Shown: positions 1,536 through 50,514 of the stretch, piece after piece
Layout of the letters: each line of letters starts with the position of its first letter
Numbering within the stretch: position 1 is the stretch's first letter
Assembly (NCBI RefSeq): GCF_028464065.1
Contig: NZ_CP116808.1
Span: 1,071,886 to 1,135,885 of the forward strand
DNA length: 64,000 bases
Reading direction: 5' to 3'
Source of the DNA: Saprospira sp. CCB-QB6
Lineage (GTDB): Bacteria; Bacteroidota; Bacteroidia; Chitinophagales; Saprospiraceae
Made by a program: the position numbers and the translations under genes
Notes under the pieces: model-generated
What the model was told of the DNA's origin: nothing
The model's database searches: none
The model's input: only the letters and a program-made list of their open reading frames with translations

Positions 1536-1580
1536 TTTGATTGTTTTTATTGGTCCAAGATAGGGTTTAAAATTTTGTGT

Positions 1581-1905
1581 CTGCGCCTTTCTTGCGGCCT
1601 AGGGACATATATCTCCTCATCTATTATCTCTGCGCCTAGGGACAAGCCCCTAGGCTAGCTTTTTTAGACAGCCCTCTAAAGAGGGCCTTTGGATAAGGAC
1701 CTGCTCTGCAATAACCCCTTAGCTAAACTTAGGTAAGCTAGTTGACAGAGATCAAGGCCTTTAGGCGATTTAGCAGGCGGCGAAGCCGCCGCAGGCCTAG
1801 CGATGTGCAGCAGTGCGGCGCAGCCGCAGACCAAGGCCGTCAGGCCGCAGGGCCGAGCGAATAGCGAGCTGCGAAACGTAGCGCCCGCCGAAGGCGGGAG
1901 GCCCC
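1581..1905. repeat. Composite GC-rich intergenic repeat: a family B fragment (gcctagggacaagcccctaggc) plus a family A core.
   Basis: Segment 1631-1720 is nearly identical to 40108-40195. The GC-rich core recurs at about 20 loci. Confidence 0.8.
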
Positions 1906-5295: not shown

Positions 5296-5460
5296 TTTTG
5301 GGGCCTCCGCTGCGGCTTCGCCTTGCGGCGCTACGTTCCGCAGCTCGCTGCTCGCTCGGCCCTGCGGCGGCTTTGCCGCCTGGGTCTGGCCTGACGGCCA
5401 CTGCTGCACATCGCTAGGCCAAGGCGGCTGCGCCGCCTAAACGCAACCCTTTGGTCCCGC
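5296..5460. repeat. Family A GC-rich repeat in reverse orientation.
   Basis: ggggcctccgctgcggcttcgccttgcggcgctacg...ggccctgcggcggctttgccgcc core. Confidence 0.8.
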
Positions 5461-12647: not shown

Positions 12648-13114
12648 TATTTCTCGCTAATTTAAAGTTGTTCAAAAAATATGCAAAGGGCCAAATTGAT
12701 CTTTTGGGCGGCCTTCGCTTCATAAATGCAGCAAAGATATAAATTTCTACAAAGGAAGTTAAACCCACCCCTATTTTGCTAGAAAAAAAGCTGAGAGACA
12801 AGCGCCAAGCTATAAGGCGTCAAAGATTGGCTGAATCCTACCCAACTAGCAGCTAGACCTACTCAGCTAGCAGCCAGCCCTAACTTTTGCCCTTTTTCAT
12901 TTTGTTACATTATTTTCATTTTTAACAATTGGGGTCCAAAATCCTGTTTCTGCAGCAAAAAGGGGAAAGACAAAATTTTAAACAGCTTCTACAACTAAAT
13001 GCCCCGAAAATCACTTCCCCTTGATGAAAATTGCATAGAAAACGGCTGTAATTATGAATACCACATACAATTTGTGGCTTAAGCTGTAAAACACTATCAT
13101 TAGTTTCTTTTTTG

Positions 13115-25681: not shown

Positions 25682-26073
25682 ATTTAGCTCTGACCCCAAG
25701 CCAGAGGCGTCTGTATCGTTACATTTAGCTCTGGCCCCAGGCCAGAGGCATCTGTATCCTTACATTTAGCTCTGGCCCCAGGCCAGAGGCATCTGTATCC
25801 TTACATTTAGCTCTGGCCCCAAGCCGGAGGCATCTGTATCGTTACATTTAGCTCTGGCCCCAAGCCGGAGGCATCTGTATCGTTACATTTAGCTCTGGCC
25901 CCAAGCCGGAGGCATCTGTATCGTTACATTTAGCTCTGGCCCCAGGCCAGAGGCATCTGTATCCTTACATTTAGCTCTGGCCCCAGGCCAGAGGCATCTG
26001 TATCCTTACATTTAGCTCTGGCCCCAGGCCAGAGGCATCTGTATCCTTACATTTAGCTCTGGCCTCAAGCTAA
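25682..26073. repeat. Tandem array of a 41-bp unit, about 9.5 copies (atttagctctggccccaggccagaggcatctgtatccttac).
   Basis: Read directly from the sequence. Two variant types in blocks (A,A / B,B,B / A,A,A) with a divergent first unit and a truncated last unit. Confidence 0.9.
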
Positions 26074-30374: not shown

Positions 30375-30542
30375 TTTTCGATTTACTGCGTCTAGAGGCG
30401 AGCGCAGCGAGCCGGCCTAGCGATGGTAGGCAGTGCGGCGCAGCCGCAGACCTAGGCGCTGCAAGCGCCGCAGGGCCGAGCGAATAGCGAGCTGCTGAAC
30501 GTAGCGCCGCAAGGCGAAGCCGCAGCGGAGGCCCCAAACAGA
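30375..30542. repeat. Family A GC-rich repeat.
   Basis: gcggcgcagccgcagacc...cagggccgagcgaatagcgagctgc...gcaaggcgaagccgcagcggaggcccc. Confidence 0.8.
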
Positions 30543-39402: not shown

Positions 39403-40023
39403 TTAGAGCGTAAAGATGGCCCGCAGGCTAAACATATAGGGATTGAAATAAGTATCCTTGCGGATGTTCATCGGAGCCCGCTGCCAACGAGCATTGATGC
39501 CCCAGTTTTTGGTGATATAAAAGGTCAGATCGGCCATTAGCATGACATAATCCTTGCGGAACTTATCAATTACGGCAGGATCATCTTGCCCATTGATTTC
39601 TACCGTGGCATTGAGGATGCGATTATAGGAAAGTCCCGCCCCAAAGTGCATGCGGTGGTAGCTGTCCTTCCCATCTGTAGAGACCTCCCAATCTTTGAGA
39701 AAGATGAGGACTGGCACCTCTATATTATTAAGATGTAGGTAGAAGTTGCGGGGCGCCCCCTGAAGAGAAGGCGACTGGCTGCCTTGCTGAGAAAAAAGAA
39801 TCTCTACGCCTAGGTCCCAAATAGGCGCCAAACGGGCCGTTCCCCTAGCCCCAATGTTTAGGCCGGGCTTGGTATAGCCTGCAGCCTCATCCCCATCTAT
39901 TTGGGCCATATTGATCCCCGCTATAATACTAGCCGAAAAGCGATTCTGATAATCTGAAGATTGCGCCTGAAGCTGTAGCGCTCCAATCCATAAGGCAAGA
40001 AAGCATAAGATATTAAGTCGCAT
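39403..40023 (-). CDS. Outer-membrane beta-barrel protein (PorT/OmpA-like barrel family).
   Basis: Signal peptide. 206 aa. C-terminal ...LRAIFTL aromatic terminus typical of OMPs. 9-nt gap to the upstream gene. Confidence 0.45.
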   Translation of the reverse strand: MRLNILCFLALWIGALQLQAQSSDYQNRFSASIIAGINMAQIDGDEAAGYTKPGLNIGARGTARLAPIWDLGVEILFSQQGSQSPSLQGAPRNFYLHLNNIEVPVLIFLKDWEVSTDGKDSYHRMHFGAGLSYNRILNATVEINGQDDPAVIDKFRKDYVMLMADLTFYITKNWGINARWQRAPMNIRKDTYFNPYMFSLRAIFTL

Positions 40024-40084
40024 AATACATTTTATTTAATGTGAAGGGCTCAAAATACTGCGCTTTTAGGGGATTGGAAAGGCG

Positions 40085-40915
40085 GGGGCTGTTTTTTATT
40101 GATGGTTTTGCCTTCTCTGCGCCTAGGGACAAGCCCCTAGGCTAGCTTTTCAGACAGCCCTCTAAAGAGGGCCTTTGGATAAGGACCTTCTCTGCAATAA
40201 CTACTTAGTACGGTAATGTACATCAACCTTTGAGGCCCTTTAAGGCGGACTCCATTTGATTAGCCTAGGGGCTTGTCCCTAGGCCATTATTGGCCTTTTA
40301 TAATAACTGTAGGTTAAAACCTACAGCCAGATGGTATTGCTGCGCAATGATGTATGAATGAGGGTTAAAACCCTCATAAAATTAAACAGCCCAAATTTTA
40401 TTCAGATACACAAAATCCTGACAGTCTCTTACCCGACTTTACAAATGCTATTTCACAAATCCCGAATAGCTTTCCCTTTGAATTGTTTGGGGTTTGGCTC
40501 CGAAATCACGCTATTATATATACCTGTGGGTTGAAACCCACAGCAACAAAAGAGGCCATACTAAACGCAATAAAATGGGCTGAAGGTTAAAACCTTCAGC
40601 CCATAGCTAGAAAAGGATTGATTAACTAAGTGAGAAAGATAAAAGGCCAAAAGATTTCAATCCATGCGGGTTTCAACCCGCATTCCATAAAAAATATTGC
40701 GGAGCAATACCTTGCTTGCTGTAGGTTTCAACCTACAGTAAACGGCCTAGCGATGTGGAGGGGTGGCCGAAGGCCAGACCAAGGCGGCGCAGCCGCCGCA
40801 GGGCCGAGCGACCCGACCAACGGGAGCCGACGCAGCGAAGCAAGTAATAGCGAGCCCCGCAACGTAGCGCCGCAAGGCGAAGCCGCAGCGGAGGCCCCAA
40901 AATATCTCAATAAAC
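40085..40915. repeat. Repeat hotspot adjacent to tRNA-Pro containing nested family A, B and C elements.
   Basis: Family B MITE at 40118-40288 with 25-bp inverted ends (gcctagggacaagcccctaggc). Family C two-hairpin modules at 40310-40390, 40500-40620 and 40660-40740. Family A GC-rich copy at 40740-40910. Confidence 0.85.
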
Positions 40916-40920
40916 ACAAA

Positions 40921-40955
40921 AAAAAAGCTGAATAACTGTAAAGTTATTCAGCTTT
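40921..40955. terminator. Bidirectional terminator hairpin just 3' of tRNA-Pro.
   Basis: aaaaaa-gctgaataact-gtaa-agttattcagc-tttt. Confidence 0.6.
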
Positions 40956-41031
40956 TGGTCGGGATGACTGGACTTGAACCAGCGACCACTCGCCCCCCAG
41001 ACGAGTACTCTACCAACTGAGCTACATCCCG
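40956..41031 (-). tRNA. tRNA-Pro (anticodon GGG), CCA encoded.
   Basis: Reverse complement reads CGGGATG-TA-GCTC...-CTCGT-CUGGGGG-GCGAG...TTCAAGT...CATCCCG-A-CCA. Anticodon loop has U33-GGG-G37. Confidence 0.85.
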
Positions 41032-41061
41032 ATTCGCTAGTAGCGTTGTTGTTTGTGGTCA

Positions 41062-41092
41062 CAAATATAGGGCGATATTTTTAAGATCCAAA
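41062..41092 (-). promoter_or_regulatory. Bacteroidota-type sigma-A promoter for tRNA-Pro (-33 TTTG, 19-nt spacer, -7 TATATTTG).
   Basis: Reverse complement reads tttg-gatcttaaaaatatcgccc-tatatttg. Nearly identical architecture upstream of tRNA-Phe. Confidence 0.55.
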
Positions 41093-41111
41093 CTTCTAGC
41101 GATTATTTTTC

Positions 41112-42290
41112 CTAATTCCCTCCAAATACATCACGGAGACGGTCTAAAAAGCCCTTTCTACCGCCTTTTTCTTTAGCATTGGGGATGAAATTTTTGCTGT
41201 CGCGCATTTTTTCTAAGGCGCGGCGTTCTTCTGAAGAGATATTTTGAGGCACCCAAACTTTGACGTGAATGAGTTGGTCGCCTTGGCCATAGCCTCTTAG
41301 AGAAGGGAGGCCCTTACCTCTTAGGCGGAACACCTTGCCGCCTTCGGTTCCGGCGGGTAGGGTAACTTTCACCTTACCGGTTAGGGTGGGCACTTCGACA
41401 GCGGTACCTAGTACTAGGTCGGCAAAATTGACATCTAGTTCATAGTGAATATTGTTGCCATCGCGGGCAAAGAGCTCATGTTCCTTTTCTTGGATATTGA
41501 TGAGTAGATCGCCTGCGGGGCCACCGTTCATGCCAGAATTCCCTTTGCCGCTCATAGAAAGTTGCATTCCTTCTGATACGCCAGCGGGGATTTCGAGTTC
41601 TAGGGTTTCTTCGCCATAGGTACGGCCTTCGCCTTTACAGCTTGTACATTTGCTGGTAATGCTTTTTCCAGAGCCGTTACATTGGGGGCAAGCGACCGTG
41701 GTTTGCATTTGGCCCAAGAAGGTATTTTGCACCTTGCGGACATATCCGCTACCATTACAGCCGCTACAAGTCTTGATTGAGCTGCTATCTTTGGCCCCAG
41801 AGCCGCCACAGCTTTGGCAATTTACATATTTCTTGACCTTAATCTTCTTTTTGGCTCCCTTAGCAATTTCTTCTAGGGTCAGGCCAACGCGAATACGGAG
41901 ATTAGAGCCTTTTTGGCCACCGGCTGCTCTGCGGCCGCGGCCGCCTTGCTGTTGGCCAAAGAAGTCGAAACCTCCTCCGCCGCCACCACCAAAGATGTCG
42001 CTAAATTGAGAGAAAATATCCTCCATAGAGAAGCCCCCTGCACCACCTGGTCCAGCTCCTTGATTAACGCCAGCATGACCGTAGCGGTCGTAAGCTGCAC
42101 GTTTTTGGTCATCATTGAGCACCTCATAGGCTTCTGCTGCTTCCTTAAATTTTTCTTCTGCCTCGGGGTTATCGGGATTGCGGTCAGGGTGGTATTTCAT
42201 AGCCACCTTGCGGTAGGCTTTTTTGAGTTGCGCCTTATCCACATTCCGATCTACGCCCAACACTTCATAATAATCTCTTTTCTGCGCCAT
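41112..42290 (-). CDS. dnaJ: Molecular chaperone DnaJ.
   Basis: J domain (YYEVLGV...KYHPDRNP), G/F-rich region and four CxxCxGxG zinc-finger repeats. Confidence 0.95.
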
Positions 42291-42308: not shown

Positions 42309-42863
42309 TTATTGGCCCACTACAACCTTGGCGTAGCGGATGATTTTTTCATTCAAAATGTATCCTTTTTCCACCGTATCAATCACTTTGCCCTTGAGCT
42401 CTTCTGTGGGAGCGGGCACTTTAGTGAGGGCTTCGTGGAAATCGGGATCAAAGGCTTGGCCAGTAGATTCCATTTCTTCCAATCCTTTTTGGGCCAAGGC
42501 TTTTTTCATTTTTTCATAGATGAGCATAATGCCATCGTCTAGGTCTTGGCCTGCTTTTACGGCCCGATCAAAATCGTCGAGTACAGGCAAGAGCGACTTG
42601 ATGGTATCGGCTGCGGCAGTTTGGATGAGCTGCAATTTTTCTCTGGCGTTGCGTTTTCTGAAGTTGTCGAATTCGGCATAAATACGCAGGTATTTATCCT
42701 TCATTTCGGCTAATTCTTGGGCCAGTTTTTCTTTTTCATCTTTGGGGGCTGCGGTTTCCTTTACAGTCTCCTCTTGAGTTTGTGCATCTGCTTGCAACTG
42801 TTCTTCTTGCTGCTGTTGCTCCTCCTGAGGATCTAGTTGTTCCTCCTGCTTCTTTTCTTCCAT
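42309..42863 (-). CDS. grpE: Nucleotide exchange factor GrpE.
   Basis: 184 aa with an acidic N-terminus and a GrpE core (YLRIYAEFDNFRKR...). Confidence 0.9.
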   Translation of the reverse strand: MEEKKQEEQLDPQEEQQQQEEQLQADAQTQEETVKETAAPKDEKEKLAQELAEMKDKYLRIYAEFDNFRKRNAREKLQLIQTAAADTIKSLLPVLDDFDRAVKAGQDLDDGIMLIYEKMKKALAQKGLEEMESTGQAFDPDFHEALTKVPAPTEELKGKVIDTVEKGYILNEKIIRYAKVVVGQ

Positions 42864-49700: not shown

Positions 49701-49832
49701 ATTTGGGGCCTCCGCTGCGGCTTCGCCTTGCGGCGCTACGTTCCGCAGCTCGCTATTCGCTCGGCCCTGCGCCGCCAAAGGCAGCTGGGTCTGGCCTGAC
49801 GGCCACTGCTGCACATCGCTAGGCCGCTCATC
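49701..49832. repeat. Family A GC-rich repeat.
   Basis: ggggcctccgctgcggcttcgccttgcggcgctacgttccgcagctcgctattcgctcggccc... Confidence 0.8.
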
Positions 49833-49959: not shown

Positions 49960-50060
49960 TTTGAACCTGTGGGTTGAAACCCACAGCAACAAAAGAGGCC
50001 ATACTAAACGCAATAAAAATGAGCCGATGGTTGAAACCATCGGCCCATATCATTTATAGC
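49960..50060. repeat. Family C two-hairpin module (gtgggttgaaacccac ... gccgatggttgaaaccatcggc).
   Basis: Homologous to 40510-40615. The second stem differs by compensatory changes. Confidence 0.8.
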
Positions 50061-50334
50061 AAACAAGGGCTTTAGCTCGCCAGTTTGCACAGCCCTACAA
50101 CCATGGGCTTCAGCCCATGGCCCTAAACAACTTCTTGCTGTTGAAGAACAAGCCGCTAAGCAATGATTGGCTAAATCGCCCCCAATTGTTAGGGAGTTGT
50201 TAAAAATAAAAATAATGTAACAAAATCAAAAAGGGCAAAAGTTATGTTCCAGACATAACTGGCTATGTCTGGGAGCTAACTAGCTAGGTAAAAAATATAA
50301 CCGGCTGATACTGTTCAGAATTTTGTGTATCCGA

Positions 50335-50440
50335 ATAAAATTTTGGCCTTTAAATTTTATGAGGGTTTTAACCCTCATTCATACATCATTGCGCAGCAAT
50401 ACCACATATGGCTGTAGGTTTTAACCTACAGTTATTATAA
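50335..50440. repeat. Family C two-hairpin module (gagggttttaaccctc ... gtaggttttaacctac), inverted copy of 40310-40390.
   Basis: Reverse complement matches 40310-40390 almost base for base. Confidence 0.85.
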
Positions 50441-50514
50441 AAGGCTAATCATCGCCTAGGGCCAAGGGCGCACACAAAATTTTAAATAGTCCCACCTACA
50501 AATAAAAAAGCCCA

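What the first reader, a model, noticed from the sequence alone, without database searches (positions are those of the whole stretch)
40085..41092. Repeat hotspot beside tRNA-Pro, including a family B MITE with 25-bp terminal inverted repeats.
The 830 bp between the OMP operon and tRNA-Pro contain no genes but hold nested copies of all three repeat families. One is a MITE-like element (40118-40288) bounded by inverted copies of gcctagggacaagcccctaggcta. Its internal segment (ctctgcgcctagggacaagcccctaggctagc...ggataaggacc) recurs at 1631-1720. tRNA-proximal regions are classic integration hotspots. The nesting indicates repeated independent insertions.
Basis: seen in the sequence. Interest (0 to 1): 0.5.

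Follow-up and report, generated by a model that had tools for sequence, protein, structure and literature searches.

The report
Decayed IS256-type MITE in repeat patchwork
The gene-free stretch beside tRNA-Pro in this Saprospira genome is a strain-variable patchwork of genus-specific repeats, and the supposed small transposon in it is the hairpin-rich core of a larger, about 270-bp non-coding transposon with IS256-type ends: real and apparently undescribed, but ordinary biology.

Summary
A perfect 24-nt inverted repeat lies at 40121-40144 / 40261-40284, its left half recurs at about 1627-1722, the region has no credible gene, and all three repeat kinds are present.

The window is Saprospira (OMP identical to Saprospira sp. 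CCB-QB6). The sampled S. grandis DSM 2844 loci hold about 30 complete and 37 partial copies of family B. Their flanks are conserved too, so the 24-nt arms are internal hairpins, not termini.

The mobile unit is a 262-277-nt composite with outer 22-nt inverted repeats (GAGACTGTTTAAAATTTTGTGT). At the hisS locus DSM 2844 carries it with a perfect 8-bp duplication, while strains Lewin and WH-T have the empty site. The same terminal sequence, with an 8-bp duplication in one of four copies, bounds 1.3-kb IS256-family insertion sequences in metagenomes.

The window copy is old: degenerate left end, no duplication, and an inherited nested hairpin pair. The tRNA-Pro/OMP interval differs in all six genomes compared, including restriction-modification and GmrSD/HEPN islands. 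No cognate transposase was found in Saprospira DNA.

Verdict: an undescribed member of a known kind, moderate-low interest. The one-sided link to 21/42-nt minisatellites is unexplained.

The parts
40024..40955 (.). Intergenic interval between the OMP_b-brl gene and tRNA-Pro. It has no credible gene and is made almost entirely of repeat modules.
   Evidence: The interval differs in all six genomes compared.
40085..40120 (+). Module M1': a degenerate left outer inverted repeat (40085-40106, GGGGCTGTTTTTTATTGATGGT, 13/22 to the family consensus GAGACTGTTTAAAATTTTGTGT) plus a 14-nt linker. This OMP-proximal arm is conserved in all six genomes.
   Evidence: invariant block CCTAGGCGCAGRRAAGG...AAAAAACAGCCCCCGCC.
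40121..40284 (+). Family B, the palindromic core of the composite element. It has two terminal hairpins (arms 40121-40144 and 40261-40284, each CCTAGGG-6 nt-CCCTAGG), two inner hairpins (GCCCTCT/AGAGGGC type) and a variable centre. It contains four CCTAGG sites.
   Evidence: (84% mean and 92% best identity to the DSM 2844 copies).
40285..40296 (+). Conserved right linker (ccattattggcc, family consensus CGACTATTGGCC), the start of module M2.
40297..40385 (+). Hairpin-pair element (family C) nested in M2: hairpins at 40307-40326 and 40359-40376 with a small ATTGC-NNN-GCAAT hairpin between. It replaces 18 nt of the DSM 2844 M2 consensus. The copy at 50300-50495 and L001 carry the same nested pair.
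40386..40428 (+). Distal part of M2 with the right outer inverted repeat (40408-40428, ACACAAAATCCTGA-CAGTCTC, 1-nt deletion). This is the end of the composite MITE-like unit 40085-40428. No 8-bp duplication flanks it (GAAAGGCG vs TTACCCGA).
40429..40478 (+). Remnant of one unit of the 42-nt minisatellite family (…tttacaaatgctatttcacaaatcccgaatagc…) that follows the M2 end in many copies.
40524..40604 (+). Second hairpin-pair element (family C). Positions 40522-40575 are 100% identical to 49965-50018.
   Evidence: family D20.
40664..40739 (-). Third hairpin-pair element (family C). It sits at the same position in S. grandis WH-T.
40740..40905 (+). GC-rich family A element, here with a 34-nt internal insertion. 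It is present at this position in all strains that keep the tRNA-Pro side.
40913..40956 (-). Intrinsic terminator of tRNA-Pro (15-bp stem plus a T run on the minus strand).
   Evidence: (I5).
40956..41031 (-). tRNA-Pro (anticodon GGG).
40076..40099 (+). Single copy of the 23-nt sequence (reverse complement of ATAAAAAACAGCCCCCGCCTTTC) that flanks, as a direct repeat, a 2-kb GmrSD_N + HEPN island in S. grandis WH-T and adjoins the same island in DSM 2844. It is the empty site here.
1557..1722 (+). Partial copy: outer inverted repeat, a truncated hairpin, one full hairpin and the left half of B, followed by a family A element.
50300..50495 (-). Copy of the composite element without B: M1 - single CCTAGG - M2, with the same nested hairpin pair.

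Best explanation
The interval is an intergenic dump of Saprospira-specific repeats. 'Family B' is the foldback core of a non-autonomous DNA transposon (MITE).

Structure of the element (shown):
- It is about 270 nt long.
- Its true ends are outer 22-nt inverted repeats, GAGACTGTTTAAAATTTTGTGT ... ACACAAAATCCTGAACAGTCYC.

How it moves:
- The ends are of the IS256-family type (shown).
- An IS256-family (Mutator-type DDE) transposase supplied in trans binds the two ends, excises or copies the element and inserts it with an 8-bp target duplication (inferred).

The copy in the window (40085-40428) is an old, immobile relic:
- The left end is degenerate and the right end has a 1-nt deletion.
- There is no duplication.
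- It carries a hairpin-pair repeat acquired before it was last copied.

Shorter relatives are most simply internal deletions between the four direct CCTAGG copies of the palindromic core (inferred). These relatives keep one hairpin, or only a single CCTAGG as at 50300-50495 and at the OMP locus of strains WH-T and DSM 2844.

The locus varies between strains for two reasons: mobile DNA lands there (MITEs, a restriction-modification island at the tRNA 3' end, a GmrSD/HEPN island), and the many dispersed repeat copies recombine.
For: 1. Multicopy and lineage-specific. The hairpin 20-mer matches 60 stretches of S. grandis DSM 2844 and only one other genome. The sampled DSM 2844 loci plus the window give 31 complete and 37 partial copies. 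Mean pairwise identity is 85%.

2. Flanks of B are conserved in every copy. About 20 loci share the architecture IR - 15 nt - B - 50 nt - IR, total 262-277 nt.

3. Target-site duplication at the outer repeats.
- L014 has CTATTCGG on both sides (8/8), L031 has 7/8 and L049 has 6/8.
- 96 shifted controls gave none at 7/8 or better.

4. Filled versus empty site.
- The 272-nt element at L014:3409-3680 (DSM 2844) is absent from the orthologous hisS / Por_Secre_tail locus of strains Lewin and WH-T.
- Those strains keep a single xCGAATAG.
- Flanks are 97.7% and 93.3% identical to Lewin.

5. IS256-type ends.
- The degenerate 22-nt end pattern, scanned in metagenomes, hits the termini of 1.3-kb elements.
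- Their only ORF (400-411 aa) is PF00872 Transposase_mut, E = 1e-101 to 1e-106.
- Close homologues are named 'IS256 family transposase' by NCBI.
- Flanking sequence diverges exactly at the G of GAGACTG, the same terminus the MITE duplication defines.
- The L131 copy has a perfect 8-bp duplication, AACAAAAG.
- An 8-bp duplication for an IS256-family member (ISPaes3) is also tabulated in PMC3281130.

6. No coding capacity and no Rfam family.

7. No orientation bias toward neighbouring genes.

8. All the deletion forms predicted from the four CCTAGG repeats are seen.
- One hairpin in either loop orientation: L052 and L025, 120 nt.
- A single CCTAGG: window 50300-50495.
-.

9. Short IR-IR MITEs with the same ends exist elsewhere (L078 88 nt, L112 82 nt, L098 69 nt), as shown.
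Against: - The window copy has no target duplication, and its left end matches the consensus at only 13/22 positions. Its status as a MITE copy therefore rests on family resemblance.
- Only 3 of 24 repeat pairs show a recognisable duplication.
- tblastn found no IS256-family transposase in the 630 kb of Saprospira DNA held, and none among multicopy ORFs. The IS copies with matching ends are gammaproteobacterial, so the cognate enzyme in Saprospira is unproven.
- B also occurs joined to family A without the M2-side end (about 10 copies in RHS regions). B is therefore not strictly tied to the transposable unit.
- At the tRNA-Pro/OMP locus the strains differ by more than a simple insertion. The sequence left of the shared CCTAGG is M1 in three genomes and B plus M2 in three.
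- The direction of change for B-less forms (deletion versus B insertion) is inferred, not shown.
Confidence: 0.7

Rival explanations
1. Family B is an independent MITE. Its 24-nt arms are its termini. It targets CTAG within CCTAGG (as IS630-, IS5- or IS481-type elements do) and duplicates TA, CTAG or CCTAGG. It once inserted into a small IS256-type MITE and was then carried along.
For: - B-less copies have exactly one CCTAGG where B-containing copies have CCTAGG...CCTAGG. This is seen at window 50300-50495, and at the OMP locus of WH-T, DSM 2844 and L003.
- Minimal IR-IR MITEs without any B exist (L078).
- The arms are perfect.
- CTAG-targeting families are known from established knowledge (recalled, not tested).
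Against: - Every one of the 31 complete copies has the same 12-nt linkers outside the arms, and no copy sits in unique DNA.
- The palindromic CCTAGG cannot be told apart from an extension of the inverted repeat.
- One-hairpin forms in both orientations need deletion anyway.
- No IS with these arms was found.
Confidence: 0.15
2. The modules are REP/BIME-like structural elements kept by selection, acting as terminators, mRNA stabilisers, insulators or protein-binding sites. They would spread by a hairpin-specific (RAYT-like) enzyme or by gene conversion, not by DDE transposition.
For: - The elements are strictly intergenic and rich in hairpins.
- The small GGTTRAAACC hairpins show compensatory stem changes.
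- Family A is extremely abundant and modular, with covarying stems.
Against: - For the B composite there is an 8-bp duplication and a clean filled/empty site.
- Its ends match those of a DDE transposon.
- It shows no orientation bias to genes.
- No RAYT gene was looked for or seen.
Confidence: 0.08
3. There is no transposition at this locus at all. The arrangement arose only by homologous or illegitimate recombination and segmental duplication among pre-existing dispersed repeats.
For: - The six genomes share an exact junction at CCTAGG with different partners on one side.
- The window copy has no duplication.
- About 10 B copies were clearly amplified as parts of larger RHS-associated segments.
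Against: - This cannot explain the family as a whole (L014 insertion).
- L001, a near-identical strain, has an extra copy whose terminus abuts the loop of a hairpin that is intact in the window. That looks like a fresh insertion.
Confidence: 0.07

Closest known systems
IS256-family insertion sequences (Mutator-type DDE transposase, Pfam PF00872; e.g. IS256, ISPaes3)
   Same: - The terminal 22 nt (GRGACTGTTYARRATTTTGTGT) are shared.
- The exact terminus is the same (G of GAGACTG).
- Both make an 8-bp target duplication.
- Sources; PMC3281130.
   Different: - The Saprospira element is about 270 nt and non-coding.
- It has a 162-nt foldback core unrelated to the IS interior.
- The matching IS copies come from Gammaproteobacteria.
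- None was found in Saprospira DNA.
Bacterial MITEs such as Correia/NEMIS (Neisseria), RUP (Streptococcus pneumoniae) and ERIC/IRU (from general knowledge, not tested here)
   Same: - They are small, non-coding, multicopy and intergenic.
- They have inverted-repeat ends and fold as long hairpins.
- They are polymorphic between strains.
   Different: - This one has two nested levels of inverted repeats.
- Its core carries four CCTAGG sites.
- It is associated on one side with 21/42-nt minisatellites.
- There is no sequence similarity to those families, and Rfam finds nothing.
REP/BIME mosaics of enterobacteria and pseudomonads (from general knowledge)
   Same: The interval is a mosaic of short hairpin modules in both orientations. 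The stems of the small GGTTRAAACC hairpins covary.
   Different: The B composite has DDE-type ends and an 8-bp duplication. No RAYT link has been shown.
tRNA-associated genomic islands
   Same: In DSM 2844 a restriction-modification island abuts a 16-nt duplicate of the tRNA-Pro 3' end at this locus.
   Different: The window has an intact tRNA-Pro with no island. The repeats in the window lie beyond the tRNA terminator and are not integrase products.

Membership tests
MITE (non-autonomous DNA transposon) | Small (<500 bp) and without coding capacity | tested here: met
   Composite is 262-277 nt. ORFs in the interval have no Pfam match.
MITE (non-autonomous DNA transposon) | Terminal inverted repeats at the boundary of the inserted DNA | tested here: met
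The outer 22-nt repeats coincide with the filled/empty boundary at L014.
MITE (non-autonomous DNA transposon) | Target-site duplication | tested here: met
   Family: 8/8 at L014, 7/8 at L031, 6/8 at L049, and none at 7/8 or better in 96 controls. The window copy itself has none (GAAAGGCG vs TTACCCGA).
MITE (non-autonomous DNA transposon) | Many copies, with presence/absence polymorphism between strains | tested here: met
IS256-family derivative | Ends match those of IS elements that encode a PF00872 transposase | tested here: met
IS256-family derivative | 8-9-bp duplication | tested here: met
   PMC3281130.
IS256-family derivative | Cognate transposase present in the same genome | tested here: inconclusive
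   No tblastn hit in 630 kb of Saprospira DNA (about 12% of DSM 2844 plus the window and a few loci of other strains). Whole genomes could not be scanned.
IS1595 family / IS1016 group (considered because of the 8-bp duplication and GGGgCTG-like ends) | Ends bound a DDE_Tnp_IS1595 transposase | tested here: not met
   All ORFs found between these ends are PF00872, not IS1595-type. The 8-bp duplication alone is shared (PMC8101967).
CTAG-targeting MITE (IS630, IS5 or IS481 type) for B alone | B bounded by its 24-nt arms inserted at CTAG in otherwise unrelated DNA, with a TA, CTAG or NCTAGN duplication | tested here: inconclusive
   A single CCTAGG at B-less copies is compatible. However, no copy lies in unique DNA, and a palindromic site cannot be told apart from the repeat.
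REP/RAYT system | Hairpins flanking or associated with a Y1 (RAYT) transposase gene | not tested
   No RAYT search was possible without whole genomes. Only hairpin covariation was measured.
Any Rfam RNA family | Covariance-model match at the gathering score | tested here: not met
   Only tRNAs pass. There is nothing credible at E<=5 in 39900-41200.

The most novel reading that the evidence does not exclude
The IS256-type MITE and the 21/42-nt-period minisatellites of Saprospira are functionally coupled. Either the transposase is guided to these arrays in a fixed orientation, or the M2 end seeds or drives their expansion.

The basis is that about 20 of 25 copies have an array 10-30 nt outside the M2 end and none has one outside the M1 end.

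That would be an unusual, polar link between a bacterial transposon and VNTR formation or targeting.
Probability: 0.2. Interest if true: 0.5.

Novelty: new member of a known kind. Interest (0 to 1): 0.3.

Why it matters
- Annotation. It gives a correct annotation for a large class of unannotated Saprospira intergenic DNA. MITE, minisatellite, hairpin-pair and GC-rich families together fill most intergenic space in this window.
- Spurious genes. It explains short gene calls that are probably spurious. A 74-aa gene is called across family A in strain Lewin.
- Strain typing. It identifies strain-typing markers and recombination substrates in a predatory marine bacterium.
- Method. A perfect inverted repeat need not be a transposon terminus. 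Boundaries must be set by filled/empty sites.
- Limits. None of this changes understanding of transposition.

Tried and rejected
- IS1595/IS1016 as the source family (my recall of 'GGGgctg' ends and 7-9-bp duplications). Rejected: the ORFs bounded by these ends are PF00872 / IS256 family.
- A full-length IS with B's 24-nt arms. The small scaffold L016 ending in a B hairpin encodes an RHS-type toxin fragment, not a transposase. Multicopy ORFs near B are RHS toxins and immunity proteins. No repeat pair 0.5-3.5 kb apart in Saprospira loci encloses a transposase-sized ORF.
- Array units as copies of the terminal repeat (possible transposase-binding arrays). Rejected: local alignment scores are no better than shuffles for 16 array types.
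- A regulatory role suggested by position upstream of the OMP gene. There is no orientation bias of 25 copies toward the 5' or 3' ends of genes.
- A plasmid source. The 301-nt L014 stretch containing the 272-nt MITE (L014:3395-3695) has no match in 72,556 plasmids.
- Literature. No paper in the library links Saprospira to MITEs or IS256. The Aureispira ixotrophy preprint shows only that IS elements are active in the family.
- The exact DnaJ and CCB-QB6 HisS proteins were not on record, so the source genome's own contig could not be fetched.

Full report
**What is in the window.**
- All genes around the finding lie on the minus strand: grpE (42309-42863), dnaJ (41112-42290), tRNA-Pro(GGG) (40956-41031), and then an OMP_b-brl gene (39403-40023) followed by a Wzi-like gene.
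- The 932 bp between tRNA-Pro and the OMP start codon (40024-40955) contain only short ORFs with no Pfam match. No Rfam family other than the tRNA matches.
Arms 40121-40144 and 40261-40284 are 24 nt and 100% complementary. The core 22-mer occurs three times in the window against zero expected.
- The left half recurs at about 1627-1722. The element folds as a long hairpin (z = -5.7).
- Each arm is itself a hairpin, CCTAGGG-ACAAGC-CCCTAGG, so only the loop and the two outer bases on each side give the arms an orientation.
- The interval also holds a GC-rich family A copy (40740-40905), three pairs of small GGTTRAAACC hairpins (40307/40359, 40524/40580, 40664/40719) and the tRNA terminator (40913-40956), as shown.

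**Organism and copy number.**
- The OMP protein is identical to WCL82315.1 of Saprospira sp. CCB-QB6. It is 91% identical to that of S. grandis WH-T.
- An exact scan for the 20-nt hairpin in one genome per species (185,579 species) hit 60 stretches of S. grandis DSM 2844 and a single stretch elsewhere.
- In those stretches plus the window I count 31 complete B elements (160-166 nt, one of 265) and 37 solitary hairpins or halves.
- Complete copies are 85% identical on average. The window copy is 84% identical to the others on average and 92% at best. Conservation is in the ends; the central 40 nt vary.

**The 24-nt arms are not the termini.**
- In every copy the sequence outside the arms is conserved as well. 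On one side lies gagactgtttaaaattttgtgtttctcctttttgctg (M1). On the other lies cgactattggccaaatcctaacaagctaaaggcccaaattttattctaatacacaaaatcctgaacagtccc (M2).
- M1 and M2 end in an outer inverted repeat, GAGACTGTTTAAAATTTTGTGT / ACACAAAATCCTGAACAGTCCC.
- About 20 DSM 2844 loci have the architecture IR - 15 nt - B - 50 nt - IR, 262-277 nt in all.
- About ten further B copies have a different right partner (cgatgaatggcaggcgg..., running into family A) and a common left flank next to RHS toxin/immunity cassettes. These were amplified as parts of larger duplicated segments.

**Evidence that the composite is the transposable unit.**
- I took the ends as four bases plus CTGTTT... and compared the 8-mers immediately outside them.
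  - They match 8/8 at L014 (CTATTCGG), 7/8 at L031 and 6/8 at L049.
  - Ninety-six shifted controls gave none at 7/8 or better.
  - Most copies (21 of 24) have no recognisable duplication.
- I fetched the locus orthologous to L014 (hisS - Por_Secre_tail gene) from strains Lewin and WH-T.
  - The 272-nt element (L014:3409-3680) is absent from both.
  - Both keep a single xCGAATAG.
  - The flanks are 97.7% and 93.3% identical to Lewin.
- This is a clean filled/empty pair with an 8-bp duplication.
- The site lies in a 42-nt minisatellite. Its copy number and sequence differ among all three strains, and it exists without the element.

**Which transposase.**
- A scan of metagenome contigs with the degenerate 22-nt end (GRGACTGTTYARRATTTTGTGT) returned more than 120 stretches.
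- Most are the termini of a 1.3-kb element. Many contigs break about 100 nt inside it.
- Four complete copies (L079, L131, L176, L195) carry a single 400-411-aa ORF that matches PF00872 Transposase_mut at E = 1e-101 to 1e-106.
- Close homologues are named IS256 family transposase, in Gammaproteobacteria.
- Flanking DNA diverges exactly at the G of GAGACTG, the terminus that the MITE duplication defines.
- The L131 copy has a perfect 8-bp duplication. An 8-bp duplication for an IS256-family member is also tabulated in PMC3281130.
- Short IR-IR derivatives with these ends occur in other organisms and in a Saprospira-like contig (L078, 88 nt), as shown.
- The ends and the duplication length are therefore those of the IS256 family.
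- I did not find a PF00872 gene in the 630 kb of Saprospira DNA available to me. The cognate enzyme in Saprospira is inferred, not shown.

**What B is within the element.**
- B contains four direct copies of CCTAGG, two per hairpin.
- All the products expected from deletion between them are seen.
  - 120-nt elements with one hairpin in either loop orientation: L052 and L025.
  - Elements with a single CCTAGG: window 50300-50495.
  - The M1-CCTAGG-inverted-M1 palindrome at the OMP locus of WH-T, DSM 2844 and L003.
  - These rest.
- Palindrome-stimulated deletion between short direct repeats is established knowledge. I infer it here.
- The reverse event, B inserting at CCTAGG as a MITE of its own, cannot be excluded. 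No B copy lies in unique DNA, and the palindromic site cannot serve as evidence of a duplication.

**The copy in the window.**
- It spans 40085-40428.
  - A left end that matches the consensus at 13/22 positions.
  - B.
  - M2 interrupted at 40297-40385 by a hairpin pair that replaces 18 nt of the DSM 2844 consensus.
  - A right end with a 1-nt deletion.
- No 8-bp duplication flanks it.
- The same nested hairpin pair is present in the B-less copy at 50300-50495 and in contig L001. The nesting therefore predates the copying of the element and is not an independent event at this locus.
- A single degenerate unit of the 42-nt minisatellite follows (40429-40478).

**The hotspot.** I compared six genomes.
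- Shared blocks. The four genomes sampled on the tRNA side (window, Lewin, WH-T, DSM 2844) share the tRNA terminator plus family A. All six share the block CCTAGGCGCAGRRAAGG...AAAAAACAGCCCCCGCCTTYC on the OMP side.
- Everything between these blocks differs:
  - Window: the decayed MITE plus two more hairpin pairs.
  - L001 (OMP protein identical, 97% DNA identity): an extra MITE copy whose terminus abuts the loop of a hairpin that is intact in the window.
  - Lewin: half of B.
  - WH-T, DSM 2844 and L003: no B.
- WH-T and DSM 2844 also carry a 2-kb GmrSD_N + HEPN island. In WH-T it is flanked by a 23-nt direct repeat; one copy of that repeat is seen beside the island in DSM 2844. The window has a single copy of the repeat (40076-40099).
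- DSM 2844 also has a BsuBI/PstI-type restriction-modification island abutting a 16-nt duplicate of the tRNA-Pro 3' end.

**Function.**
- Twenty-five copies show no preference for facing 5' or 3' gene ends. All are intergenic.
- I see no evidence of a host function. The window copy lies 54 nt from the OMP start codon. However, the OMP-proximal 75 nt are retained even where the GmrSD island separates M1' from the gene, so the promoter is probably downstream of the element.

**Unexplained.**
- In about 20 of 25 copies a tandem array with period 21, 22, 42, 43 or 84 nt starts 10-30 nt outside the M2 end and never outside the M1 end.
- Some arrays are followed by a conserved 60-nt module and may belong to a longer composite repeat.
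- The 42-nt type pre-exists at empty sites.
- Array units are not similar to the terminal repeat.

**Verdict.** It is wrong on the element's boundaries and on independent nesting. This is an undescribed member of a known kind, an IS256-type MITE with an unusual foldback core, and of modest interest.

Noticed in passing
window, 21 copies (e.g. 1794-1900, 5329-5420, 30414-30540, 40740-40905, 49734-49825): The GC-rich family A (about 110-165 nt) occurs about once per 3 kb: 21 copies in the window and 158 in about 565 kb of other loci. That implies more than 1000 copies per genome. It has conserved single-stranded blocks (GGCCTAGCGATG, CAGACC, GCAGGGCCGAGCGA..AGCGAGC, AGGCCCCAAA) separated by hairpins whose stems differ between copies but stay complementary, often with GNA/GAA-type triloops. 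There is no Rfam match.
   Followed up: partly
window 37378/37430, 40312/40363, 40529/40585, 40669/40724, 49972/50029, 50364/50417, 43350: Small hairpins NNNNNGGTTRAAACCNNNNN come in pairs 51-57 nt apart. There are 108 hairpins in 580 kb of Saprospira DNA. Stem positions 2-5 are 88-94% Watson-Crick paired, with several alternative pairs, which is REP-like covariation. The pair at 40522-40575 is 100% identical to 49965-50018.
   Followed up: partly
L008-L064 (DSM 2844), window 12837-12882 and 25682-26070: There are many non-coding minisatellites with periods of 21, 22, 41-43 or 84 nt (about 2 or 4 helical turns), with different unit sequences at different loci. About 20 of them start 10-30 nt outside the M2-side end of the MITE and none lies on the M1 side. 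At the hisS locus the array differs in copy number and sequence among three strains.
   Followed up: partly
L065:3936-5926 (WH-T), L067:3004-4874 (DSM 2844); empty site at window 40076-40099: A 2-kb GmrSD_N + HEPN (RiboL-PSP / MAE_28990) island sits upstream of the OMP gene in two S. grandis strains. In WH-T it is flanked by the direct repeat ATAAAAAAYAGCCCCCGCCTTYC, which overlaps the MITE-like arm M1'.
   Followed up: partly
L067:1-2456 (DSM 2844): A restriction-modification island (BsuBI/PstI endonuclease, N6_Mtase/Eco57I) ends at a 16-nt duplicate of the tRNA-Pro 3' end (CCAGTCATCCCGACCA). ARAGORN finds no intact tRNA-Pro within 5 kb.
   Followed up: partly
L010:43-2634, L027:3074-7987: CRISPR arrays (36-nt repeat GTTTCAATGCTGCTTCGCCTGCAATGGGTTTAGTAT, period about 70) begin about 40 nt from a family B copy in DSM 2844.
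   Followed up: no
L004, L007, L010, L017, L027, L028, L033, L042-L044, L056, L016: About ten B copies lie beside RHS/YD-repeat toxin genes that have variable C-termini and small immunity-like ORFs. They share the left flank cccaagaaaaagttgagggactaat. A 2.2-kb scaffold (L016) ends in a B hairpin.
   Followed up: partly
L076-L195 (JGI metagenomes Ga0126326-34, Ga0136654 and others): A single IS256-family IS (ends GAGACTGTTCAGAATTTTGTGT) is so abundant in some metagenomes that dozens of contigs break about 100 nt inside it. Close homologues of the transposase are annotated in Sedimenticola and Thiohalomonas.
   Followed up: partly
L070:4483-4707 (Lewin): A 74-aa gene is called across the family A repeat next to tRNA-Pro, probably a spurious annotation caused by the GC-rich repeat. 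In the window, the ORF at 40630-40935 that overlaps the family A copy at this locus has no Pfam match.
   Followed up: partly
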